A stretch of DNA of 44,407 bases from IMG/VR virus record IMGVR_UViG_3300010279_000003, positions 1 through 44,407 of that record, one strand, 5' to 3'. Positions 3,115-34,431 of the stretch are shown here, piece after piece (position 1 is the first letter of the stretch; every line of letters begins with the position of its first letter). The notes under the pieces were generated by a model, which had not been told where the DNA came from, did no database searches, and saw only the letters and a list, made by a program, of their open reading frames with translations. The position numbers were made by a program, and so were the translations under genes. Origin of the DNA: a virus. Taxonomy: Duplodnaviria; Heunggongvirae; Uroviricota; Caudoviricetes.

Positions 3115-3399
3115 TTAACTATAATAGCTCGCTATTAGGTCGTCAACCTGTTTAAACGAACCAACGACAAAAACATTTGCACCACGTTTGCTCATCCGCT
3201 CGTGCTCTCGTAGCTGATGCGGGTCCGGCTTCGTGTTTTCGTCTTTCTTAACCTCGACAAACCAGACTATGCCGCCTGGGAGAATTACCAGCAGGTCAGG
3301 AGCGCCCGCTCTATTTTCGTAGGAAAGTTTACGAACGAGGCCGCCAATGGCCTCGAATTGCTCTTTTGCGTATTTCTGAATCTTGCCTTCCGGTGTCAT
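3115..3399 (-). CDS. VRR-NUC domain nuclease (PD-(D/E)XK fold)
   Basis: 94 aa with PD...EVK motif (APDLLVILPGGIVWFVEVKKDEN). Confidence 0.7.
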   Translation of the reverse strand: MTPEGKIQKYAKEQFEAIGGLVRKLSYENRAGAPDLLVILPGGIVWFVEVKKDENTKPDPHQLREHERMSKRGANVFVVGSFKQVDDLIASYYS

Positions 3400-6781: not shown

Positions 6782-6810
6782 ACTATAATAGCCAACTATT
6801 CAGGTGTCAA
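6782..6810 (-). promoter_or_regulatory. Sigma70-like promoter, class A (TTGACA-N17-TATAGT)
   Basis: Read on minus strand; near-identical copy at 8922..8950. Confidence 0.55.
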
Positions 6811-8921: not shown

Positions 8922-8950
8922 ACTATAATAGCGAACTATTCACTTGTCAA
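8922..8950 (-). promoter_or_regulatory. Sigma70-like promoter, class A (TTGACA-N17-TATAGT)
   Basis: Read on minus strand; spacer contains GAATAGTT as in the 6782..6810 copy. Confidence 0.55.
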
Positions 8951-8954
8951 TGGG

Positions 8955-8983
8955 CTTTTCTAAAATAATTAATATGGTACTAT
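8955..8983 (+). promoter_or_regulatory. Candidate promoter for the XRE regulator (extended -10 TGgTACTAT, weak -35)
   Basis: TACTAT at 8978..8983 with TG two bases upstream; lies back-to-back with the minus-strand class A promoter. Confidence 0.35.
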
Positions 8984-9014
8984 TCACATATCAACTGACT
9001 AAGGAGTAATTGAC

Positions 9015-12378: not shown

Positions 12379-12407
12379 TTGCACACCCCAATATAATAGG
12401 ATACTAT
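12379..12407 (+). promoter_or_regulatory. Sigma70-like promoter, class B (TTGCAC-N17-TACTAT)
   Basis: Spacer ...AATATAATAGGATACTATTCA; same family found six times. Confidence 0.6.
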
Positions 12408-12441
12408 TCACTTATCGAAACGAGACAGAGGAGTGAGGGTT

Positions 12442-13344: not shown

Positions 13345-13503
13345 CAGGTCAATAGGTTACTATTTGGCTTAGTGGCTTACGCTGCTACACAGCAGCGTAC
13401 AACTTTAACCTAGTGTCGTCAAAAAGCGACACTTCTCTAAGACTCTGTTGGGTCAGGAATAAAGTGTCTCCGATTAGCGACATTAAACACTAATAAAATT
13501 TAC

Positions 13504-13532
13504 TTGCACACTGGGATAGAATAGGCTACTAT
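13504..13532 (+). promoter_or_regulatory. Sigma70-like promoter, class B (TTGCAC-N17-TACTAT)
   Basis: Followed by conserved leader AAACGAGAGGAGAGACAGAG then ATG at 13563. Confidence 0.6.
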
Positions 13533-13562
13533 TCATTTACACAAACGAGAGGAGAGACAGAG

Positions 13563-21242: not shown

Positions 21243-21268
21243 AGCCCCATTACGGGGCTTTATTTTAT
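21243..21268. terminator. Bidirectional intrinsic terminator between portal (+) and 21265..21447 (-)
   Basis: Stem AGCCCC/GGGGCT with T-rich tracts on both sides. Confidence 0.6.
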
Positions 21269-21447
21269 ACATCTCTGCTCGCCAGATAGTCACAGCGAGC
21301 TATGGCTAAGGATAAGCTACGGTATGCGCTATCGGATTTAGCGTGGGTAAACCCAGAAATCATTACGTAATACACCCCTTTATCGTTTAGAACCCAGTAT
21401 TTGCCGTTTTCGTGCATTATGTCTTTTTCTTTGAACATTTTAACCAC
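21265..21447 (-). CDS. Hypothetical protein, orphan minus-strand gene in the late region
   Basis: 60 aa; own class B promoter and RBS. Confidence 0.5.
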   Translation of the reverse strand: MVKMFKEKDIMHENGKYWVLNDKGVYYVMISGFTHAKSDSAYRSLSLAIARCDYLASRDV

Positions 21448-21467
21448 CCCCTGTTTAAGTTATCTGA

Positions 21468-21496
21468 ATAGTACCCTATTATATTGGTGTCTGCAA
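21468..21496 (-). promoter_or_regulatory. Sigma70-like promoter, class B (TTGCAG-N17-TACTAT)
   Basis: Read on minus strand; about 45 bp nearly identical to the copy at 24318..24346. Confidence 0.6.
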
Positions 21497-21540
21497 ATAT
21501 TATTTTTATGCGTTACACTGGCGATACTACGGGAGGGCCT

Positions 21541-22584
21541 ATGAGCTTACTTACATCTCTAATCAGCCACCAAATATGGCTGCAACGCACCGCATCCGGT
21601 GAAGTGAAAGACCTCGCACCGTTCCTTCAGGAGATGCGGGACGAAATCAAACGGCAGGTGCTGTTATTCGGTGACGACGGGCGAAGCACCGCGCGGCTGA
21701 ATAAGCTGTTACGCGACCTTGAAGAAGCACTGACAGGACTTACAGGCGACTGGCAAACAAAGCTGACAGAAGACCTTAAGGAGCTGGCGGCGTATGAGGC
21801 TGAGTGGAATGTGAAGACACTTACGGCTAATGTTAACGCTGAATTTGTTACTCCGACCGCTGAGCAGGTGTGGTCTGCTGCCGTGTTTCAACCGCTGGCG
21901 TTAAATGACAAGCCTGTCGATTTCACCAAGCTGATGGAAGGCTGGGGTGAAACAGAAGTGTCTCGCCTGGTAACCGGCGTTAAGATGGGCTTTGTACAGG
22001 GCCAAACCACACGGCAGATTGTTAAGAATGTCGTAGGCGCTGGTGGGCTGGCAGACATCTCGGAACGAAACGCAGCTACGGTAATACGCACCGCGCTGTC
22101 CCATGTATCGAACGAAGCCCGCAATGAGACGTACCGACAGAATGACGACATCATCGAGAAGTACGAATGGGTGTCAACGCTGGACAGCCGTACCAGTACG
22201 ATTTGCAGAGCCAGAGACGGAATGACGTGGGAAATTGGTAAAGGTCCGATGCCCCCCGCCCATTTTGGATGTCGAAGTACCACTGCACCGGTAATCAGTT
22301 CGGAGTTCGACTTCCTAGATAAAGGTGCAAAACGCGCGGCTAAGGGTGCGGACGGCGGTATGCAGGTAAGCGCAGACACCACCTATTACGAGTTCCTGAA
22401 ACAGCAACCGGCATGGTTCGTGGATGAAGCACTCGGACCTACCCGCGGTGCTATATTCAGGAATAGTGGGATATCCCCAGAGGAATTCCGGGTAATATCC
22501 GTCGACGCTTTTGGTAGACCTTTAACCTTGAAGGAGATGGCGGCGTTAGATAACAGGGTTGCTGAATATCTTAGGTCGGTATAA
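21541..22584 (+). CDS. Head morphogenesis / minor head protein
   Basis: Position after portal; start ATG 21541 with GGAGG RBS inside ORF-track ORF 21484..22584. Confidence 0.6.
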   Translation: MSLLTSLISHQIWLQRTASGEVKDLAPFLQEMRDEIKRQVLLFGDDGRSTARLNKLLRDLEEALTGLTGDWQTKLTEDLKELAAYEAEWNVKTLTANVNAEFVTPTAEQVWSAAVFQPLALNDKPVDFTKLMEGWGETEVSRLVTGVKMGFVQGQTTRQIVKNVVGAGGLADISERNAATVIRTALSHVSNEARNETYRQNDDIIEKYEWVSTLDSRTSTICRARDGMTWEIGKGPMPPAHFGCRSTTAPVISSEFDFLDKGAKRAAKGADGGMQVSADTTYYEFLKQQPAWFVDEALGPTRGAIFRNSGISPEEFRVISVDAFGRPLTLKEMAALDNRVAEYLRSV

Positions 22585-22640: not shown

Positions 22641-22698
22641 AACCCCATGAAGGTATGCCTATCTCTGGCATCGACCAATCTTCATGGGGTTTTCTTAT
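22641..22698 (+). terminator. Long hairpin (12-bp stem AACCCCATGAAG/CTTCATGGGGTT) with T-rich tail
   Basis: Inverted repeat read directly; the ORF-track start at 22655 lies inside it. Confidence 0.45.
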
Positions 22699-22708
22699 AG
22701 GGTTTAAT

Positions 22709-23278
22709 ATGGGAATTGTTTTTGGTGTGGGTATTAACGATGTTTCACCAATAAGTTGCGGAGGGGTGCATATAGCGTCCTACGCCGTATGGAAGAACAT
22801 GTTAAAGAGGTGCTACGACAAGAAATGGCAGCAAAGAAACAGAACTTATATAGGTTGCCGCGTGTCGGACGATTGGTTGGTGTTCAGTAATTTCAAGGTC
22901 TGGTTTGATGATTTTTATGTACCTGGGTGGCAGATAGATAAGGATTTACTTAACCCGGGAAATAAGGTTTACGATGCTTCTAACTGTGTTTTCATCCCTA
23001 AATCCCTCAATACTTTCCTAACAGCCCACGACGCTCTTCGAGGCGAACACCCACTCGGCGTACATTTCCATAAACAAAAGAAAAGATTCATCGCTCAAGT
23101 ATCCGTGGATGGCGTATCTGAACAAATAGGCGCTTACGAAACCGCTCAAGAGGCACACGTAGCATGGTTTCATAGAAAAATTGAATTAGCATATGAATAC
23201 AAAGGTCTTTGCGATAGCATAGACCCACGCCTTTTCGAAGGCGTCTTACGTAAGATTAACTCAATGAAAGAGGTTTAG
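22709..23278 (+). CDS. AP2-domain protein, homing-endonuclease-like
   Basis: C-terminal AP2-like segment (GVHFHKQKKRFIAQVSVDGVSEQIGAYETAQEAHVAW); no clear HNH histidines seen in the N-terminal part. Confidence 0.5.
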   Translation: MGIVFGVGINDVSPISCGGVHIASYAVWKNMLKRCYDKKWQQRNRTYIGCRVSDDWLVFSNFKVWFDDFYVPGWQIDKDLLNPGNKVYDASNCVFIPKSLNTFLTAHDALRGEHPLGVHFHKQKKRFIAQVSVDGVSEQIGAYETAQEAHVAWFHRKIELAYEYKGLCDSIDPRLFEGVLRKINSMKEV

Positions 23279-23744: not shown

Positions 23745-23773
23745 AGGCCCCATAATGGGGCCTTAGTTTTATT
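23745..23773. terminator. Bidirectional intrinsic terminator
   Basis: Stem AGGCCCC/GGGGCCT, loop ATAAT, T-rich tail. Confidence 0.6.
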
Positions 23774-24290
23774 TAAATCGCGCAGGCATTAACACCATAA
23801 AGGCCGTGTTTGAAAATTGTATTTTGCATCCTCTGGTTTGGTCCTGGAAATCGAAACGAGCAATTTCATTTTTGTATGCCTTAGAAATCTTGTACGCGTC
23901 TGCCAAATAGCGCAGAGTGAACCCTATACTGTCGACAACACCCGGTGTGATGTGCGCCACGCGTCTCCAGTCAGGAAAGTTTCCTTCTACAACATCTACC
24001 GGAAGTGTACATATAAGCGCACGATTATCGTCATAGAAAGATACACTGCCGTTGTCGTGGTTTACCTCTGCGTAGTTAAATTTAGAAGGCTCTCTCCCTT
24101 TGATGTCTATGAGAGTCCCTTTCTCAACGTTGGTCTTCACATTGTCGCAGAACAATCTATGACTGTCCGTAGACACTATCAATCCTTCAGGGTCTATGTA
24201 AAAAGCGTTCAAATAGTAGCGCACATCATTTTTAGCCCTGCATATTTTCGCCCCTACATACGCAGGGAAAGTAATTACTGTAGTAACCAT
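23769..24290 (-). CDS. Truncated beta sliding clamp (DnaN) homologue: domain II plus the C-terminal half of domain III, no domain I
   Basis: Matches to E. coli DnaN as I recall it: DVRYYLN, TDSHRL (vs TDGHRL), FPDWRRV (vs FPDYRRV), IGF..YL.D, C-terminal VLMPARF (vs VVMPMRL); own promoter and AGGAG RBS. Confidence 0.7.
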   Translation of the reverse strand: MVTTVITFPAYVGAKICRAKNDVRYYLNAFYIDPEGLIVSTDSHRLFCDNVKTNVEKGTLIDIKGREPSKFNYAEVNHDNGSVSFYDDNRALICTLPVDVVEGNFPDWRRVAHITPGVVDSIGFTLRYLADAYKISKAYKNEIARFDFQDQTRGCKIQFSNTAFMVLMPARFK

Positions 24291-24317
24291 TTATCATCTC
24301 CTGTTTAAGTTAACTGA

Positions 24318-24346
24318 ATAGTACCCTATTATATTGGTGTGCGCAA
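24318..24346 (-). promoter_or_regulatory. Sigma70-like promoter, class B (TTGCGC-N17-TACTAT) driving the DnaN-like gene
   Basis: Read on minus strand; conserved leader TTAACTTAAACAGGAG follows. Confidence 0.6.
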
Positions 24347-30325: not shown

Positions 30326-31492
30326 ATGGCTACAACTCCTTTTAAGGGCGCGAATACAGCGCAATTCTATGTGGCGGAAGTGACCCCGGGCGTAACCCCA
30401 GACAACCCTGTCTGGTCGCCGCTGCGCAATACGGGCGGTGTTCCTGCGGTAACCCGCGATGCGCTGACCTCCAACGAACTCGACGGCAGCCGAGAAACTA
30501 CATCCATCCGAACCGGCAACAAACAGGTTAGCGGGGAGTACGCCATCGAACTTAGCTCCCGTAGCCAGGATGATTTCCTCGCGGGTGCTATGACTTCTAC
30601 GTGGCAAGTTGGGGTAGAGATTACGGGTGCAGAAATTAAGGTCGCTCCAGCAGGTAAAACATTCACCCGCGCTGCTGGTAGCTTCATTACTGACGGTGTA
30701 GAAGTTGGCGACCTGATTGCGTTCACCGACTTAACCGGCGACAACGCAAAACCGTTTATCGTGACCGAGGTTTCTGCTCTTGTAGTTACGGGTTCTGGCA
30801 TTCAACACACGCTGACAGCAGAGACTGTAACCACCGACGCTAAAACTGGCGATAAACTGGAAACCGGTAACGCGTGTAAGACGTTCTCCATCCTGACATG
30901 GTTCAAAGGACAGTGCGGGAACCCTGACGCGTACATGTTAACCAAAGGCGTGGAAATCTCCGGTTTCACCATTGAACAGGCCGTAAACGCGATGGTGACA
31001 GGCAGCTTCCCGTTCATCGGCCTGAGTCAGGAGATTCTTTCCGGGCCGCCGGCAGGTTCCGACTTCTCTCAGGTCACATTCACTGACGAGCCGTTCTCAT
31101 CCGTAGATGTGTCTGTGTTCGACGGTTCTACGCCGTTGCGTTGCGATACTCTGACCATCACCAACGACAACGGTGCTTCCGCGCAGTTTGAACTTGGCAA
31201 CAGTAGCGTCGCGTTCGTGGAACGCGGCCGCGCAGCTAACACATTCTCCATCTCCGGCAAGCTGTACGACATGGCGATGATTCAGAAGTTTATCAACGAA
31301 CAGCAGGTAGAGATTAACTCTATTCTGGCGGGGGTAAACGGGGCTATGTCTTTCAGTTTGAAACGTGCCGAGTTGACCGCAGTTACGCCAGAGATTGGCG
31401 GGCCTGAGTCAATCACTCAGAGCATAGAAGGACAGTCCACAGGCAATCAATATCAATCTTCTATTGTAATACAGCGTATTAGCTACGCGTAA
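30326..31492 (+). CDS. Major tail protein
   Basis: 388 aa, Thr/Gly-rich, followed by terminator; assignment by position. Confidence 0.6.
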   Translation: MATTPFKGANTAQFYVAEVTPGVTPDNPVWSPLRNTGGVPAVTRDALTSNELDGSRETTSIRTGNKQVSGEYAIELSSRSQDDFLAGAMTSTWQVGVEITGAEIKVAPAGKTFTRAAGSFITDGVEVGDLIAFTDLTGDNAKPFIVTEVSALVVTGSGIQHTLTAETVTTDAKTGDKLETGNACKTFSILTWFKGQCGNPDAYMLTKGVEISGFTIEQAVNAMVTGSFPFIGLSQEILSGPPAGSDFSQVTFTDEPFSSVDVSVFDGSTPLRCDTLTITNDNGASAQFELGNSSVAFVERGRAANTFSISGKLYDMAMIQKFINEQQVEINSILAGVNGAMSFSLKRAELTAVTPEIGGPESITQSIEGQSTGNQYQSSIVIQRISYA

Positions 31493-31496
31493 GGAA

Positions 31497-31523
31497 AAGG
31501 CCCCGAAAGGGGCCTTACTATTT
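31497..31523. terminator. Bidirectional intrinsic terminator
   Basis: Stem AAGGCCCC/GGGGCCTT, loop GAAA; T-rich on the minus side. Confidence 0.6.
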
Positions 31524-31582
31524 ACCGTGGTTCTCGTGGAACCCTAAATCTCTTTCAGCAACTCTCCTCGCAGCAACTGCAT

Positions 31583-32014
31583 CTAGTAGCGTTTTAAAGC
31601 ATCCGATGTGTGTGTTTTTACGTTATTGTTGAATATCTGTGCATACCACAACCTTTCTTTCGCGTTCCAGTAAACCCCGGTTACTCCTGATTTATTATTA
31701 CGCTGTTTTGACATATTTTTATGATTTTCCGCATTGGACTTTTTAGCTAAGTTAAGCGGTCTATTGTTTATTCGGTTATGGTCTAGATGGTCTATTTGAT
31801 CTGACGAGGTTAGCTTATCGTTAGGATTATTTAAGTCCCAAGCTATACGGTGCGCCGCGTGCCATTTACCCCTGAAAAATATCCTTCTATACCCGTCTCG
31901 CTGTACAGTACCTGCCTCCTCTCCAGCCTTAGCCCTCCCAGACCGTGTTACTCTGTTAAATATCCTTCCTGAAATTAAGTCGTATATGAAAAATTCATTC
32001 CAGTCCATAATCAT
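31583..32014 (-). CDS. HNH homing endonuclease with AP2 domain
   Basis: SDQIDHLDHNRINNRPLNL (HNH_3-like) and GVTGVYWNAKERLWYAQI (AP2-like). Confidence 0.75.
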   Translation of the reverse strand: MIMDWNEFFIYDLISGRIFNRVTRSGRAKAGEEAGTVQRDGYRRIFFRGKWHAAHRIAWDLNNPNDKLTSSDQIDHLDHNRINNRPLNLAKKSNAENHKNMSKQRNNKSGVTGVYWNAKERLWYAQIFNNNVKTHTSDALKRY

Positions 32015-32027
32015 CTCCTGTTGCGAT

Positions 32028-32055
32028 AAGGCCCCTTTCGGGGCCTTTTTCTTTA
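32028..32055 (+). terminator. Hairpin with T-tail in plus orientation, inside the minus-strand accessory operon
   Basis: Stem AAGGCCCC/GGGGCCTT, loop TTTC, then TTTCTTT. Confidence 0.45.
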
Positions 32056-32283
32056 CTCATCAATATTATCCCTGTACTCCCGTAACTTCTCCAGACTTTC
32101 AATTGCTTCTGCTAAGTCGGTTCCGGTGTCCTTGTGTCCGCGAAGGCCCATACACAACAGCTTCTTCAATGCGTGCTGTAGCGCCGGGTCCCGGATATCG
32201 AAGGCGCGGAGCACATCATAAACATCTACTGTCATAGTGCTGCCGTGGGTATTTGTCATTGTGCGGTTGTATTTATTTGTCAC
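32053..32283 (-). CDS. Hypothetical protein
   Basis: 76-aa ORF in operon. Confidence 0.5.
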   Translation of the reverse strand: MTNKYNRTMTNTHGSTMTVDVYDVLRAFDIRDPALQHALKKLLCMGLRGHKDTGTDLAEAIESLEKLREYRDNIDE

Positions 32284-32473
32284 TGTTAACTCTCTTAAAT
32301 CGGGCTATGCCTGACTCGTTAATGCTGCCTATTTCAAAGAAGCTGCGATATTTAGGCGAATACATTCTTACGTCGCCGTTCTCTAGGGTGACCCCTTCAT
32401 ATACCGCACCTACTTCGAATCCATTTTTCTCCGCGTACGGACTCACATCGGTGCATTCATACATATCTTTCAT
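32273..32473 (-). CDS. Hypothetical protein
   Basis: 66-aa ORF in operon. Confidence 0.5.
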   Translation of the reverse strand: MKDMYECTDVSPYAEKNGFEVGAVYEGVTLENGDVRMYSPKYRSFFEIGSINESGIARFKRVNSDK

Positions 32474-33600
32474 CCCAGCATCTCCGGTGAAATAGTTAAA
32501 CGTGCGACCTCGCCATATTCGGCGCTATAAGTAATTACGTTTGCACTACGGCCCGACATCCATCCGCCGCGGGAGGCGTAGGCGTCTTTGGCCGCTAAGG
32601 TGCGGTGTTGCTCAACAATCATGTTACGGCTTTCTACAATCTTCTGGTGGTGCAGGTGGCCTACGTGGGCGTAGCTGTAAACACTCTCACCGAACGCTTT
32701 GCGGAACTTGGCAATCATAACCGGTTCAATAGCGTCGAATCGTGCTTTATGCCCGTGATGGAAGAACAGCGTAGTTTTGCCGTGTTGCACCATCTTGTAA
32801 ACATCCGGCGACGTATCGACAATCACTCGGCTGTCGTTTGAGTATAAAACCGTGAACATTTCGGCAAGCCATACGGAGCCGACAGGGTCGTGATTTCCTT
32901 GCACGATAAGCAAGCGAACATTTTTGTGCTTAACCAGCGCCATATCAACGACACGGCGTACCATACGAATCATGTAGCGTACAAGTTTCTGATAGCGGGT
33001 GTCCGCATCAAGAACATGGCGCGACTCTGGCGTAACGGCATCCAGGCTATCGAAGTGCGCGAAGTCTCCTAGCAGATTAATAACACCCGTTCCTGCGTCA
33101 GGCGCTTTCTGGAATGCTGCATCGAACCATCGAGAGAACAGGTCTTCCGCGATTTTCATATCCCAGTCGTCGCCGCTCTCGTCCGCCCATGCCAGCATAC
33201 CGAGATGAAAATCAGATACCGTGTAAAGATTGAGTAGCTTGTCGTCACGTTTGGCGCGTGCCACTTTAACAGGCGCAACGGGGGTAATCTCTGACTTCAT
33301 GCCTTCGATTACGGCCTTCATTAACTCGACCTGACGTTCTGCGTCAGTGTCGGTCTTAACCCATTGCAGTTTAGTGTTGCCGAACTCGTCCACCAGAGAC
33401 GACGTACCTTTAATCTTGTAGCCGTCAGGCACAAGGTGACTAACGTCGCGACCGTGGCCTACACCTTTCTTAGCCAGCTTCGCTTTACGGATACGGATAA
33501 CGCGGTCTGAGATTCCGTACTTACGTGCGATATCAATAATTTTTGTTCCGGCGTTCAATTCTTCCCGTAACTGTTCGTCGGTTATTTTCTTATGAGCCAT
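32470..33600 (-). CDS. HTH-domain protein fused to a calcineurin-like metallophosphoesterase (SbcD/Mre11-like motifs)
   Basis: N-terminal HTH (IIDIARKYGISDRVIRIRKAK); MPP motifs SDFHLG, GDFAHFD, GNHD, GHLHH. Confidence 0.7.
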   Translation of the reverse strand: MAHKKITDEQLREELNAGTKIIDIARKYGISDRVIRIRKAKLAKKGVGHGRDVSHLVPDGYKIKGTSSLVDEFGNTKLQWVKTDTDAERQVELMKAVIEGMKSEITPVAPVKVARAKRDDKLLNLYTVSDFHLGMLAWADESGDDWDMKIAEDLFSRWFDAAFQKAPDAGTGVINLLGDFAHFDSLDAVTPESRHVLDADTRYQKLVRYMIRMVRRVVDMALVKHKNVRLLIVQGNHDPVGSVWLAEMFTVLYSNDSRVIVDTSPDVYKMVQHGKTTLFFHHGHKARFDAIEPVMIAKFRKAFGESVYSYAHVGHLHHQKIVESRNMIVEQHRTLAAKDAYASRGGWMSGRSANVITYSAEYGEVARLTISPEMLG

Positions 33601-33639
33601 GCTTTACTTCCTCGTGTTTAGGATTTGTCCTATACTAGC

Positions 33640-33831
33640 TCACTTCTCTTTGACATTCGAGTTGCACGCCCAGATTAAAATAAATACCCACGGCAGCAGA
33701 ACCCAACCGAGAAACAGATTAGCCATGAATATCGCTAATTTAGCTTTATGGTTGCGCATATGCGCCACGAGAAATGGGATAAAATAAACTAAAACGATAA
33801 TGATTAAGAAGAACATAGTAATACCTGTCAT
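33640..33831 (-). CDS. Small membrane protein resembling the superinfection-immunity (Imm) family
   Basis: AIFMANLFLGW...W...LIWA pattern; family recalled from memory. Confidence 0.55.
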   Translation of the reverse strand: MTGITMFFLIIIVLVYFIPFLVAHMRNHKAKLAIFMANLFLGWVLLPWVFILIWACNSNVKEK

Positions 33832-33872
33832 GGGGTAGCTCCTGTTTGAGTTAACATTGTTGGTGTAAGTGA

Positions 33873-33901
33873 ATAGTATCCTATTATGTTGGGGTGTGCA
33901 A
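33873..33901 (-). promoter_or_regulatory. Sigma70-like promoter, class B (TTGCAC-N17-TACTAT) driving the accessory operon
   Basis: Read on minus strand; spacer ACCCCAACATAATAGGA. Confidence 0.6.
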
Positions 33902-33968
33902 GTAATGTGTTAGAATTATTTTGCGCCTAGTGTCGCACACGAAAAGCGGGTGGTTCCCGTCTGGCGCA

Positions 33969-34001
33969 TTAACCTTAACCTTAACCAGTAACCTCTTAAC
34001 C
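33969..34001. repeat. Tandem TTAACC hexamers (three contiguous plus a fourth copy)
   Basis: TTAACCTTAACCTTAACCAGTAACCTCTTAACC read directly. Confidence 0.7.
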
Positions 34002-34014
34002 AAAGGATTAAAGA

Positions 34015-34431
34015 ATGAAACTTTCTGATTTTTATTACGAAGCTGAGGCAGAAAAAGGCGCCCGTATGCCAATACCACTGAAAGACGGCACCGATTCAGG
34101 GGAGTGGCTGAACGTTGTTTCACCGGAGGCAGACGTTGCCGTTAAAGCTATGAGGGCGTTTACACTTGCGTACCGCGCGGCATTAGGTAAATTGAAACCG
34201 CTTCGTGATAAATGCGAGGAACTGAAAGATTTCTCGGAATACAATATTAAGATGGAAGACGCCGCGACGGACCTTAACCGCCAGTTAGCACTTGAACTGG
34301 TTAACGGTTGGAGTCTCGACGATGAATTTAATAAAGAGAACCTGAACACTCTTTTCTCACAATATAAACGCCTCGCTGAACACGTTGTTGTTTTCCACAA
34401 CGAACAGCTTCACCAATTGCAGGAAAAGTAG
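34015..34431 (+). CDS. Tail assembly chaperone (G-like)
   Basis: 138 aa directly upstream of tape measure gene. Confidence 0.55.
   Translation: MKLSDFYYEAEAEKGARMPIPLKDGTDSGEWLNVVSPEADVAVKAMRAFTLAYRAALGKLKPLRDKCEELKDFSEYNIKMEDAATDLNRQLALELVNGWSLDDEFNKENLNTLFSQYKRLAEHVVVFHNEQLHQLQEK

What the first reader, a model, noticed from the sequence alone, without database searches (positions are those of the whole stretch)
31583..33901. Minus-strand accessory operon inside the tail module: Imm-like membrane protein plus HTH-fused metallophosphoesterase
A class B promoter (33873..33901) drives five minus-strand genes inserted between the major tail gene and the tail chaperones: an Imm-like membrane protein, a 376-aa protein with N-terminal HTH and SbcD/Mre11-type motifs (SDFHLG, GDFAHFD, GNHD, GHLHH), two small proteins, and an HNH-AP2 endonuclease. 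The position, opposite strand, own promoter and terminators are what one expects of an accessory or anti-defence island. The HTH-phosphoesterase fusion is unusual; it could be a nuclease or a phosphodiesterase acting on host nucleic acid or signalling nucleotides.
Basis: partly seen in the sequence, partly recalled or inferred. Interest (0 to 1): 0.7.

Follow-up and report, generated by a model that had tools for sequence, protein, structure and literature searches.

The report
Conserved phage immunity and nuclease operon
This is the standard backwards-facing gene cluster found in the tail region of all Kaguna/Jersey-type phages: a small membrane protein that blocks superinfection, a DNA-binding metal-dependent enzyme that is most likely a DNA nuclease, two small proteins and a damaged homing endonuclease. 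It is already annotated in hundreds of genomes, but nobody has tested what the enzyme does.

Summary
Five minus-strand ORFs lie between the tail-tube gene and the tail chaperones, and the four I tested are under strong purifying selection. They sit behind a promoter-like element that recurs five times in the window.

The window is a Kagunavirus (Guernseyvirinae), about 93% identical here to phage KMB36. Imm, the phosphoesterase and the 76-aa protein are kept in both Kagunavirus and Jerseyvirus. Only the 66-aa ORF and the HNH gene are sporadic, and the HNH gene is frameshift-truncated here.

The HTH-phosphoesterase is not unusual. It is a full-length member of PHROG 704 ("DNA repair exonuclease"), which occurs in 2038 phage records and is reported in 508 of 522 Drexlerviridae. 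All metal-binding motifs are invariant.

Its predicted fold is closest to the nucleases PolD-DP1, Mre11 and SbcD. It also keeps the two histidines that P. putida MPE needs for DNA cleavage. Relatives sit among replication, recombination and nucleotide-metabolism genes.

My best reading is an early or middle operon co-regulated with other phage genes, encoding superinfection exclusion plus an HTH-tethered Mn-dependent DNA nuclease. The anti-defence-island reading is not supported. The biochemical function is untested. Novelty is low and interest modest.

The parts
33873..33901 (-). Class B promoter-like element: -35 TTGCAC (33896-33901), 17-nt spacer, -10 TACTAT (33873-33878). The AATAG-N4-CTATT palindrome (33872-33885) overlaps the -10.
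   Evidence: A 28/29 repeat lies at 12379-12407 (+), 0.00 expected. Five copies share the -35, spacer and -10, each 35-50 nt upstream of an ATG. The -35 and -10 hexamers and their 17-nt spacing are kept in Jerseyvirus Ent1 (TTGCAT-17-TATTAT) while the spacer sequence diverges. It is not called by the consensus scan (7/12 match).
33640..33831 (-). Imm-like two-transmembrane protein (63 aa), a putative superinfection-exclusion protein.
   Evidence: PF14373 at E 7.7e-14, 51.8 bits against a 27.9 cut-off. phrog_1039 'immunity to superinfection' at E 2.5e-23. Two hydrophobic spans at about aa 5-23 and 33-55. Found in 371 phage records, nearly all Guernseyvirinae. dN/dS 0.03-0.24.
32470..33600 (-). 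HTH-metallophosphoesterase (376 aa). N-terminal three-helix HTH (aa 8-44; window about 33466-33600), a beta-hairpin plus helix (aa 61-104), and a binuclear metallophosphoesterase domain (aa about 119-376; window 32473-33246).
32273..32473 (-). 66-aa ORF in the variable slot downstream of the phosphoesterase gene; its start overlaps the phosphoesterase stop codon. A lineage-restricted small beta protein.
   Evidence: Only 5 clusters of close relatives (93% identity or more) in 5.8 billion proteins. No Pfam or PHROG hit. AF2 predicts a five-strand beta fold, pLDDT 78.6. dN/dS 0.04-0.08. The same slot holds a HAD/PNKP phosphatase in K-01 and an HNH gene in Ro145clw.
32053..32283 (-). 76-aa conserved small protein of unknown function (motif KY..VDVYDVL.AF...PA.QHALKK.L..GLRGHK...DL.EAI). 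It has a GTG start here.
   Evidence: Found in 774 phage records. 89-91% identical to the Jerseyvirus copies, against 54% for the phosphoesterase. phrog_2452 at E 8e-37. No Pfam or PDB family. dN/dS 0.05-0.08.
32027..32053 (.). Hairpin B (stem-loop 32028-32047), the upstream arm of a 27-nt inverted repeat that brackets the HNH cassette. Its T-run is on the + strand only.
   Evidence: I1: 27 nt, 96% complementary. The loop is flipped relative to KMB36.
31518..32014 (-). HNH homing-endonuclease gene, frameshifted. The ORF is 31583-32014 (143 aa); the out-of-frame tail runs to the ancestral stop at 31518-31520.
   Evidence: PF13392 HNH_3 at 26.9 bits against a 24.8 cut-off, and phrog_99 at E 3.8e-38. 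A 2-nt (CA) insertion relative to KMB36 truncates the C-terminus. The whole query, HNH segment included, is covered at 80% or more in only 8 of 453 related records.
31491..31517 (.). Hairpin A (stem-loop 31497-31516), a terminator shared with the convergent tail-tube gene. It has a T-run on the minus strand and is the other arm of the inverted repeat.
   Evidence: The equivalent site is annotated as a bidirectional terminator in Shashou.

Best explanation
This is the conserved minus-strand operon of Guernseyvirinae, not a recent insertion.

Regulation. Host RNA polymerase probably starts at a phage-specific sigma-70-type promoter (TTGCAC-17-TACTAT). Its -10 overlaps an AATAG-N4-CTATT palindrome. 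The same element heads the rightward cluster of small ORFs at 12.4-13.5 kb and two other minus-strand units inside the head module. The same palindrome also sits in the spacers of the promoters of the leftward replication genes. The operon is therefore most likely expressed with the early or middle DNA-metabolism genes, independently of the late tail genes around it, and is probably controlled by one palindrome-binding phage regulator. All of this is inferred.

Products:
1. An Imm-type two-TM inner-membrane protein that, by homology to T4 Imm, blocks DNA entry of superinfecting phage. This is inferred.
2. A PHROG-704 enzyme whose sigma-region-4/LuxR-type HTH tethers a binuclear (Mn2+) metallophosphoesterase domain to DNA. 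That domain acts as a stand-alone DNA nuclease of the Mre11/SbcD/DP1/PdeM kind, without a capping domain or a Rad50-type partner. It would process DNA ends or branched intermediates for recombination-dependent replication, or break down host DNA for nucleotide salvage, or both. The fold, the motifs and the genomic neighbourhood are shown; the substrate and the role are inferred.
3. A lineage-specific small beta protein (66 aa).
4. A highly conserved 76-aa protein of unknown role.
5. An HNH homing endonuclease that rode in between two inverted copies of the terminator hairpin and is now frameshifted. It sits past a weak hairpin.
For: Identity and conservation:
- The region is 93% identical to Kagunavirus KMB36 and matches 453 phage records.
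- The same gene order is seen in KMB36, Shashou, K-01, Ro145clw and Jerseyvirus Ent1.
- dN/dS is 0.02-0.24.

Promoter:
- Five class B copies and four class A copies share the palindrome.
- The hexamers and their spacing are kept in Jerseyvirus.
- The motif matches, as its reverse complement, the 7-copy PHIRE consensus reported for fBC-Eco01 (PMC9825357).
- In Kagunavirus K1B4 transcriptomics, Imm peaks in the same class as the DNA polymerase and the methylases (PMC12645636).
- The other class B minus-strand units include a gene with DNA-metabolism hits (phrog_3007, and a weak beta-clamp domain hit).

Enzyme:
- Full-length phrog_704 match. All metal ligands are invariant in 41 sequences down to 33% identity.
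- The only metallophosphoesterases the family profile touches in the PDB are P. putida nuclease MPE and T. maritima Mre11.
- Seven of 41 family members weakly hit TIGR04123 PdeM, the only enzyme-domain model among the NCBIfam hits.
- The equivalents of MPE His81 (in GDFLH) and His113 (in GNHD) are conserved here as H182 and H237. Those two residues are essential for DNA cleavage but not for bis-pNPP hydrolysis (PMC7826289).
- The HTH is supported by Sigma70_r4_2 (E 1.5e-9) and GerE (E 2.4e-8) hits in relatives and by the model.

Neighbourhood of relatives:
- SSB and an RNase-H-like gene; a Holliday-junction resolvase and a DNA ligase; a helicase and Dam methylase.
- A helicase, a primase and a RecA-dependent nuclease upstream; ribonucleotide reductase; a dGTP diphosphohydrolase-type protein.
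- In Drexlerviridae the gene is often followed by PNK or dNMP kinase. In some Kagunaviruses it is followed by a HAD_PNKP phosphatase.
Against: - No biochemical or genetic data exist for any member of PHROG 704 in the literature I could search.
- All sequence links to PdeM and Mre11 are below significance. The window protein itself is below the Pfam gathering scores for Metallophos.
- There is no capping domain and no Rad50/SbcC partner, so Mre11-like chemistry cannot simply be assumed.
- The K1B4 study labels the Imm class 'late' on its own 120-minute scale. The promoter has not been mapped experimentally and is a weak consensus match.
- The role of Imm is inferred from a 42-residue domain match only.
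Confidence: 0.55

Rival explanations
1. Nucleic-acid end-healing enzyme. The phosphoesterase would remove 2',3'-cyclic or 3'-phosphates from broken RNA or DNA, like the phosphatase module of bacterial Pnkp (my own knowledge). It would work with a HAD/PNK partner to repair tRNA or DNA cut by host defence nucleases.
For: A gene matching the HAD_PNKP phosphatase domain (PF25109, E 8.7e-20) directly follows the phosphoesterase gene in K-01, with similar annotations in RP180 and phiEc3. PNK and dNMP kinase are the commonest genes after it in Drexlerviridae that lack the SH3 gene (PMC13164509). P. putida MPE itself produces mixed 3'-PO4 and 3'-OH ends (PMC7826289).
Confidence: 0.12
2. Anti-defence phosphodiesterase, one of the first reader's options. 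The enzyme would destroy cyclic nucleotide or oligonucleotide immune signals (CBASS, Pycsar, type III CRISPR, Thoeris), and the cluster would be a counter-defence island.
Against: The gene is core rather than accessory: 2038 phage records, and 508 of 522 Drexlerviridae. An N-terminal DNA-binding domain is conserved. The nuclease-specific His of the GDFxH motif is conserved. Neighbours in other phages are replication, recombination or nucleotide genes. In the BASEL phenotyping, Kagunaviruses show high sensitivity to restriction-modification systems and variable sensitivity to Old (10.1101/2024.09.12.612763). PADLOC gives no hit, though it models defence rather than anti-defence genes.
Confidence: 0.08
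3. Protein Ser/Thr/Tyr phosphatase like lambda NinI, reprogramming host phosphoproteins.
For: The Shashou annotators report HHpred 99% probability to lambda Ser/Thr phosphatase. One distant homologue sits just upstream of an antiterminator-Q gene; by my own recollection that resembles the position of ninI in lambda.
Confidence: 0.05
4. Host-chromosome demolition enzyme, as a specific sub-case of the nuclease reading. The HTH-phosphoesterase would be the functional counterpart of T5 A1, degrading host DNA early to shut the host off and feed phage DNA synthesis.
For: T5 A1 is essential for host DNA degradation. It is itself predicted to be a metallophosphatase resembling DSB-repair and proofreading nucleases (bioRxiv 10.64898/2026.04.02.716235), which are the same structural neighbours found here. 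The promoter is shared with the rightward small-ORF cluster. A dNMP kinase or PNK often follows the gene in Drexlerviridae. A1 is also preceded by a 65-aa protein annotated with two TM domains.
Against: There is no significant sequence relationship to A1: hhalign probability 19% over 20 columns, HMM score 2.2 bits, and a separate PHROG, 1745. T5.005 is not an Imm-family protein. I found no data on host DNA degradation by Guernseyvirinae.
Confidence: 0.2

Closest known systems
PHROG 704 'DNA repair exonuclease' (GenBank labels: calcineurin-like phosphoesterase, DNA polymerase II small subunit, phosphatase) of Guernseyvirinae, Dhillonvirus, Drexlerviridae and others
   Same: Full-length match at E 1e-161, including the N-terminal HTH. 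98% identical to the Shashou protein and 54% to Jerseyvirus Ent1 gp23. This is the family the protein belongs to.
   Different: Nothing structural. The family name is an annotation, not a tested function. In Drexlerviridae and Dhillonvirus the gene lies next to the lysis or terminase genes rather than beside Imm in the tail module.
Pseudomonas putida MPE / PdeM (TIGR04123; PDB 6NVO), a Mn-dependent ssDNA endonuclease
   Same: Binuclear metallophosphoesterase with no capping domain. It has the DxHxG, GDFLH and GNHD motifs, and its nuclease-essential His81 and His113 have conserved equivalents here, H182 and H237. It is the only curated enzyme-domain family that relatives touch by sequence.
Mre11 / SbcD (and T4 gp47) recombination nucleases
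   Different: There is no capping domain, because the protein ends with the phosphoesterase fold. No Rad50/SbcC-like ATPase gene is annotated in the near-identical KMB36 genome. Sequence identity is only 13-18%. Dimerisation is unknown.
Archaeal PolD small subunit DP1 (3'-5' proofreading exonuclease)
   Different: 12% identity. There is no PolD large subunit. The phage polymerase is annotated as DNA polymerase I. I found no evidence that this protein is a polymerase subunit.
Phage T5 A1 (host DNA degradation and second-step DNA transfer)
   Same: A phage metallophosphatase-fold protein with nuclease-like structural neighbours, preceded by a small two-TM protein gene. It is a possible functional analogue.
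   Different: No significant sequence similarity and a different PHROG. It is 556 aa, with no matching HTH detected.
T4 Imm (PF14373 Imm_superinfect)
   Same: The 63-aa protein matches the family above the Pfam cut-off and has two TM spans.
   Different: The match is to a 42-residue domain only. Exclusion activity and its target phages are untested.

Membership tests
Calcineurin-like binuclear metallophosphoesterase superfamily | Ordered metal-ligand motifs DxH, GD, GNH(D/E), H and GHxH | tested here: met
   D130, H132, D179, N236, H237, H282 and H317 are invariant and H315 is near-invariant, in 41 sequences down to 33% identity.
Calcineurin-like binuclear metallophosphoesterase superfamily | Pfam gathering score for PF00149 or PF12850 | tested here: not met
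   22.0 bits against 27 (PF12850) and 17.2 against 21.5 (PF00149). The family is too divergent for the Pfam models; 12 and 10 of 41 relatives hit them at E 0.01 or better.
Calcineurin-like binuclear metallophosphoesterase superfamily | Metallophosphoesterase fold | tested here: met
PHROG 704 (phage 'DNA repair exonuclease') | Full-length profile match | tested here: met
   E 9.7e-162, residues 4-375 on profile positions 2-389 of 390. The Drexlerviridae, Vibrio and Campylobacter phage homologues hit the same PHROG.
Mre11/SbcD nucleases | C-terminal capping domain after the phosphoesterase domain | tested here: not met
Mre11/SbcD nucleases | Partner SMC-like ATPase (Rad50, SbcC or gp46) encoded in the genome | tested here: not met
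   No such gene is annotated in the KMB36 genome, which is 93% identical over the queried segment, nor next to the gene here. I did not run a dedicated profile search of the whole window for Rad50.
Mre11/SbcD nucleases | Histidine after motif II (GDxxH) plus the motif III histidine | tested here: met
   GDFAH, with H182 present in at least 90% of sequences and H237 invariant. The functional meaning is taken from P. putida MPE mutagenesis.
PdeM / P. putida MPE endonuclease (TIGR04123) | NCBIfam model score | tested here: not met
   No hit for the window protein at E 0.1 or better. Seven of 41 relatives hit weakly, best E 1e-4.
PdeM / P. putida MPE endonuclease (TIGR04123) | Mn-dependent ssDNA endonuclease activity | not testable with these tools
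   Requires purified protein.
PPP-type Ser/Thr phosphatases (lambda NinI) | GDxHG, GDxVDRG and GNHE signature, and closest fold | tested here: not met
T5 A1 family (PHROG 1745) | Sequence homology | tested here: not met
   hhalign probability 19% over 20 columns. HMM score 2.2 bits. A1 hits only phrog_1745.
Imm_superinfect (PF14373, T4 Imm) | Pfam gathering score and two TM helices | tested here: met
   51.8 bits against 27.9. Hydropathy peaks at about aa 5-23 and 33-55.
Imm_superinfect (PF14373, T4 Imm) | Blocks DNA entry of superinfecting phage | not testable with these tools
   Needs expression in trans and plating or DNA-injection assays.
HNH-AP2 homing endonuclease | HNH catalytic domain | tested here: met
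   PF13392 at 26.9 bits against 24.8, and phrog_99 at E 3.8e-38.
HNH-AP2 homing endonuclease | Intact C-terminal AP2-type DNA-binding domain | tested here: not met
   A +2 frameshift relative to KMB36 replaces the C-terminal residues of the intact reading frame. Pfam finds no AP2 domain even in the intact KMB36 protein, so the AP2 label rests on sequence pattern only.
Accessory / anti-defence island | Variable presence among close relatives | tested here: not met
   Imm, the phosphoesterase and the 76-aa gene are present in both genera of Guernseyvirinae. Only the HNH gene and the 66-aa ORF are sporadic.
Accessory / anti-defence island | Homology to known defence or counter-defence proteins | tested here: inconclusive
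   PADLOC gives no hit except a homing-endonuclease model for the HNH gene. No anti-defence library was available.

The most novel reading that the evidence does not exclude
PHROG 704, the HTH-tethered stand-alone metallophosphoesterase, is the so far unidentified enzyme that small virulent siphophages use to dismantle the host chromosome and recycle its nucleotides. These phages include the T1-like Drexlerviridae, Dhillonvirus, and the Jersey- and Kaguna-type Guernseyvirinae. The enzyme would be a convergent counterpart of T5 A1. Its expression would be gated by the AATAG-N4-CTATT operator shared with the phage's other promoters.
Probability: 0.2. Interest if true: 0.55.

Novelty: already known. 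Interest (0 to 1): 0.3.

Why it matters
The operon itself is ordinary. It is present and annotated in hundreds of Guernseyvirinae genomes.

What remains open is the biochemical role of its central enzyme. PHROG 704 occurs in about 2000 sequenced phages, including nearly all T1-like phages, and carries at least six conflicting database names. I found no experiment on it.

Showing that it is a DNA nuclease, and on which substrate, would fix a widespread mis-annotation. It might also explain how small siphophages process DNA ends or host DNA without a Rad50/Mre11 pair. These phages are common phage-therapy candidates, so knowing whether they degrade host DNA also bears on transduction risk.

The shared palindromic promoter element is a ready handle on the unexplored transcription programme of these phages.

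Tried and rejected
- PDB sequence search with the single protein found nothing significant.
- NCBIfam and PADLOC scans of the window proteins gave no informative hits.
- The T5 A1 homology test was negative. T5.005 is not an Imm-family protein.
- I tested whether the 66-aa ORF is the DUF7244 SH3 protein that follows the homologous gene in Tunavirus. There was no BLAST or hhalign match.
- I tested whether the 76-aa protein is a DUF3310 or dGTP_diPhyd_N-type domain. hhalign probabilities were 0.3% or less, and there were no Pfam or PDB hits. The PHROG profile positions (150-220 of 235) at first suggested a fragment of a larger protein. All homologues found are small (61-127 aa), so I dropped that idea.
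- Literature searches for functional data on the family found only annotations. I searched on Kagunavirus, Drexlerviridae, T1 host-DNA degradation, escape mutants and CM001.
- Papers on Lamassu, STAND receptors, the PUA-Cal-HAD system and daunorubicin contained nothing on this gene.
- Rfam and tRNA scans found no RNA genes in the window.
- I rejected the reading of the cluster as a recent horizontal insertion. GC content is only slightly lower than the flanks (0.47-0.49 against 0.50-0.52), and the arrangement is shared by both genera.


Full report
**What the window is.**
The queried segment (31400-34100) is 92.9% identical over its full length to Escherichia phage vB-Eco-KMB36, a Kagunavirus of the subfamily Guernseyvirinae. 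It matches 453 phage records, mostly Salmonella Jersey-type and E. coli Kaguna-type siphophages. The annotated KMB36 genome gives the layout: a + strand head-tail module, a leftward replication module and a rightward cluster of small ORFs.

**Checking the observation.**
- All five minus-strand ORFs are present at the stated coordinates. They lie between the tail-tube gene (PF18906) and two tail-assembly-chaperone genes (PF08748, PF23812).
- Pairwise dN/dS against four or five relatives is 0.02-0.24 for Imm, the phosphoesterase, the 66-aa ORF and the 76-aa ORF. So even the two small ORFs are real genes.

**The promoter.**
- The element at 33873-33901 reads TTGCAC-17-TACTAT, only 7 of 12 matches to the sigma-70 consensus. 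The generic scan did not call it.
- It is nevertheless repeated 28/29 at 12379-12407 (+), against 0.00 expected.
- Its core, ATAATAGGnTACTATTCA, occurs 8 times at up to 3 mismatches, against 0.01 expected.
- Printing the flanks shows five "class B" sites with the same -35, spacer and -10, each followed within 35-50 nt by an ATG. They are centred at 12395 (+), 13520 (+), 21467 (-), 24317 (-) and 33872 (-).
- Four "class A" sites (TTGACA-17-TATAGT) on the minus strand at 3123, 6787, 8927 and 8971 carry the same AATAG-N4-CTATT palindrome in the spacer.
- In the more distant Jerseyvirus Ent1 the hexamers and the 17-nt spacing survive (TTGCAT-17-TATTAT) while the spacer diverges.
- The motif matches, as its reverse complement, the seven-copy PHIRE consensus reported for Kagunavirus fBC-Eco01 (PMC9825357).
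- I conclude that the promoter call is reasonable, and that the cluster shares a regulatory element with the rightward small-ORF cluster and the replication genes.

**Terminators and the HNH gene.**
- Two near-identical GC hairpins lie at 31497-31516 and 32028-32047.
- They are arms of a 27-nt, 96%-complementary inverted repeat that brackets the HNH ORF.
- The downstream hairpin has a T-run in the operon's direction. The hairpin after the 76-aa gene has its T-run only on the + strand. It is at best a weak stop, and the HNH gene must be read through it.
- The HNH ORF carries a 2-nt (CA) insertion relative to KMB36. This shifts the frame and replaces the C-terminal part.
- Pfam sees HNH_3 but no AP2 domain, even in the intact KMB36 protein.
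- Only 8 of 453 related records cover 80% or more of the query. Most of the rest align only from query position about 628 onwards, so they lack the HNH segment. The HNH gene is therefore mobile, sporadic cargo that is decaying here.

**Core versus accessory parts.**
- The order Imm, phosphoesterase, variable slot, 76-aa gene, terminator, second variable slot is shared by KMB36, Shashou, K-01, Ro145clw and Jerseyvirus Ent1.
- The first slot holds the 66-aa ORF here. In K-01 it holds a HAD_PNKP phosphatase (PF25109, E 8.7e-20), and in Ro145clw and Ent1 an HNH gene.
- The second slot holds the HNH gene here, a Rha/Ant protein in Ent1 and a 57-aa ORF in Shashou.
- The 66-aa protein has only five near-identical clusters among 5.8 billion proteins.
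- Imm occurs in 371 phage records, nearly all Guernseyvirinae.
- The 76-aa protein occurs in 774 phage records. It is 89-91% identical between the two genera, against 54% for the phosphoesterase.
- So this is an old, fixed operon with two cargo slots, not an island.

**The phosphoesterase.**
- It matches PHROG 704 ("DNA repair exonuclease") over its full length at E 1e-161.
- An exhaustive search finds 4556 50%-identity clusters at E 1e-3 or better, most of them 370-420 aa.
- tblastn finds it in 2038 phage records: Guernseyvirinae, Dhillonvirus, Drexlerviridae (including Klebsiella phages), and Vibrio, Rhodobacter, Ruegeria, Rhizobium and Campylobacter phages.
[quoted passage not shown] There the gene is commonly followed by an SH3 (DUF7244) gene, PNK or dNMP kinase (PMC13164509).
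- In a 41-sequence alignment reaching 33% identity, D130, H132, G178, D179, N236, H237, H282, G283, G314 and H317 are invariant. H182, D184 and H315 are near-invariant. The refutation criterion "loss of metal-binding motifs on careful alignment" is therefore not met.
- The window protein is below the Pfam Metallophos cut-offs and has no significant PDB sequence match.
- The N-terminal HTH is not detected by Pfam in the window protein. Relatives do hit Sigma70_r4_2 (E 1.5e-9), GerE (E 2.4e-8) and other HTH models, and the family profile weakly matches GerE (E 0.06).
- The AF2 model (pLDDT 89.6) shows helices at aa 8-16, 21-28 and 32-44, a beta-hairpin plus helix at aa 61-104, then the phosphoesterase domain running to the C-terminus.

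**What kind of phosphoesterase.**
- The only metallophosphoesterases the family profile touches in the PDB are P. putida "nuclease MPE" and T. maritima Mre11, both sub-threshold.
- The only enzyme-domain NCBIfam model hit by relatives is TIGR04123 PdeM, in 7 of 41 members.
- Mutagenesis of P. putida MPE showed that His81 (the His of GDFLH) and His113 (the His of GNHD) are essential for DNA cleavage but not for bis-pNPP hydrolysis (PMC7826289). Their equivalents here are H182 and H237, and both are conserved.
- Like MPE and unlike Mre11/SbcD, the protein has no capping domain. No Rad50/SbcC-like gene is annotated in the near-identical KMB36 genome.

**Genomic neighbours of relatives.**
- SSB and an RNase-H-like protein, in a Vibrio phage.
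- A Holliday-junction resolvase and a DNA ligase, in Campylobacter phage F348, whose copy lacks the HTH.
- A helicase and Dam methylase, in BrunoManser.
- A helicase, a primase and a RecA-dependent nuclease upstream, with antiterminator Q downstream.
- Ribonucleotide reductase, and a dGTP-diphosphohydrolase-type protein.
- These contexts, the HTH and the nuclease-type histidines make a DNA nuclease the best-supported reading. I put it at about 0.55. No experiment exists, and the structural margin over non-nuclease family members is only 1-2 Z units.

**Timing.**
- The shared promoter and operator argue that the operon is expressed with the small-ORF cluster and the replication genes, not with the surrounding tail genes.
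- Two other class B promoters drive minus-strand units inside the head module. One is a 60-aa ORF (21265-21447). The other is a 173-aa ORF (23769-24290) with DNA-metabolism hits: phrog_3007 and a weak beta-clamp domain hit.
- In Kagunavirus K1B4 transcriptomics, the Imm gene falls in the same temporal class as the DNA polymerase and methylases. The authors call that class "late" on a 120-minute scale (PMC12645636). This is weak evidence, but it is consistent with co-regulation.

**Comparison with T5 A1.**
- A1 is essential for host DNA degradation. It is predicted to be a metallophosphatase resembling DSB-repair and proofreading nucleases (bioRxiv 10.64898/2026.04.02.716235). It is preceded by a 65-aa two-TM protein gene.
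- There is no significant sequence relationship, and T5.005 is not an Imm-family protein.
- The parallel is a functional lead only. I keep it as the most novel reading that the evidence does not exclude, at p about 0.2.

**Rivals.**
- An end-healing role is suggested by the HAD_PNKP or PNK genes that follow the enzyme in some relatives. Those partners are optional and are absent here.
- An anti-defence cyclic-nucleotide phosphodiesterase is not excluded by the fold; Rv0805 is among the hits. It fits poorly with the core-gene status, the HTH, the conserved nuclease histidine and the replication-type neighbourhoods. BASEL phenotyping shows Kagunaviruses are highly sensitive to restriction-modification systems and variably sensitive to Old.

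**Verdict.**
- The framing as an unusual accessory or anti-defence island is not supported.
- The operon is already present and annotated in hundreds of public genomes. Novelty is nil at the level of the feature, and interest is modest. It rests on the fact that a very widespread phage enzyme family still lacks any experimental characterisation.

Noticed in passing
window 3123-3136, 6787-6800, 8927-8940, 8971-8984, 12395-12408, 13351-13364, 13520-13533, 21467-21480, 24317-24330, 33872-33885: An AATAG-N4-CTATT palindrome occurs 9 times as an exact match (0.04 expected); the 8971 site is a degenerate tenth copy. Nine of the ten listed sites lie inside promoter-like elements. In class A (TTGACA-17-TATAGT), on the minus strand of the leftward replication module, it sits in the spacer. 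In class B (TTGCAC-17-TACTAT) it overlaps the -10. The exact copy at 13351 has no recognisable -35 or -10 hexamers. It looks like the operator of a single phage regulator, and it matches, as its reverse complement, the PHIRE motif reported for fBC-Eco01.
   Followed up: partly
window 21265-21447 (-) and 23769-24290 (-): Two further minus-strand units are embedded in the + strand head module, each behind a class B promoter. One is a 60-aa ORF (phrog_20712, unknown function) between the portal and minor-head genes. The other is a 173-aa ORF matching phrog_3007, with weak DNA-polymerase processivity-factor and beta-clamp domain hits. I saw no annotated counterpart of the 173-aa ORF in the KMB36 feature table.
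   Followed up: partly
window about 31627-31635 (HNH ORF 31583-32014): A +2 (CA)n slippage relative to KMB36 frameshifts the HNH gene and replaces its C-terminal part. This is either a decaying homing endonuclease or a sequencing error.
   Followed up: yes
window 31491-31517 and 32027-32053: A 27-nt inverted repeat, 96% complementary, brackets the HNH cassette. Each arm contains the terminator hairpin AAGGCCCC-N4-GGGGCCTT. The loop of the upstream copy is flipped relative to KMB36. A third copy of the hairpin is at 765-784. It suggests duplication of the terminator on HNH insertion, or recombination between the arms.
   Followed up: partly
window 32053-32283 (-): The 76-aa protein is the most conserved gene of the operon: 89-91% identical to Jerseyvirus, against 54% for the phosphoesterase. 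It occurs in 774 phage records across many genera, yet matches no Pfam or PDB family. Its HALKK..G.RGHK...DL.EAI motif resembles, from my recollection, DUF3310-type phage proteins, but hhalign did not support this.
   Followed up: partly
window 33851-33879 (+): A + strand promoter-like site (TTAACA-17-TAGTAT, 9/12) overlaps the minus-strand class B promoter back to back. It could restart transcription of the chaperone and tape-measure genes downstream of the interrupting operon.
   Followed up: no
window about 33940-33965 (-): A short GC hairpin followed by TTTT (GACGGGAACCACCCGCTTTTCG) lies just upstream of the class B promoter. It is conserved into Jerseyvirus Ent1, where it forms a perfect 5-bp stem. 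It is possibly an insulator against antisense transcription from the tail genes.
   Followed up: no
window 22655-23278 (+): Another HNH endonuclease ORF (207 aa, phrog_953, E 3e-79) directly follows the minor-head-protein ORF (21484-22584). KMB36 annotates this region as 'minor head protein with inserted intein'.
   Followed up: no
L017 6137-6532; L013 4037-4366; L015 2178-4088: In distant relatives, the phosphoesterase gene is immediately followed by a dGTP_diPhyd_N (PF18909) protein. It lies a few genes downstream of a DUF3310 protein and just upstream of antiterminator Q. It also sits close to, and convergent with, a class II ribonucleotide reductase gene. This is a recurring nucleotide-metabolism association.
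   Followed up: partly
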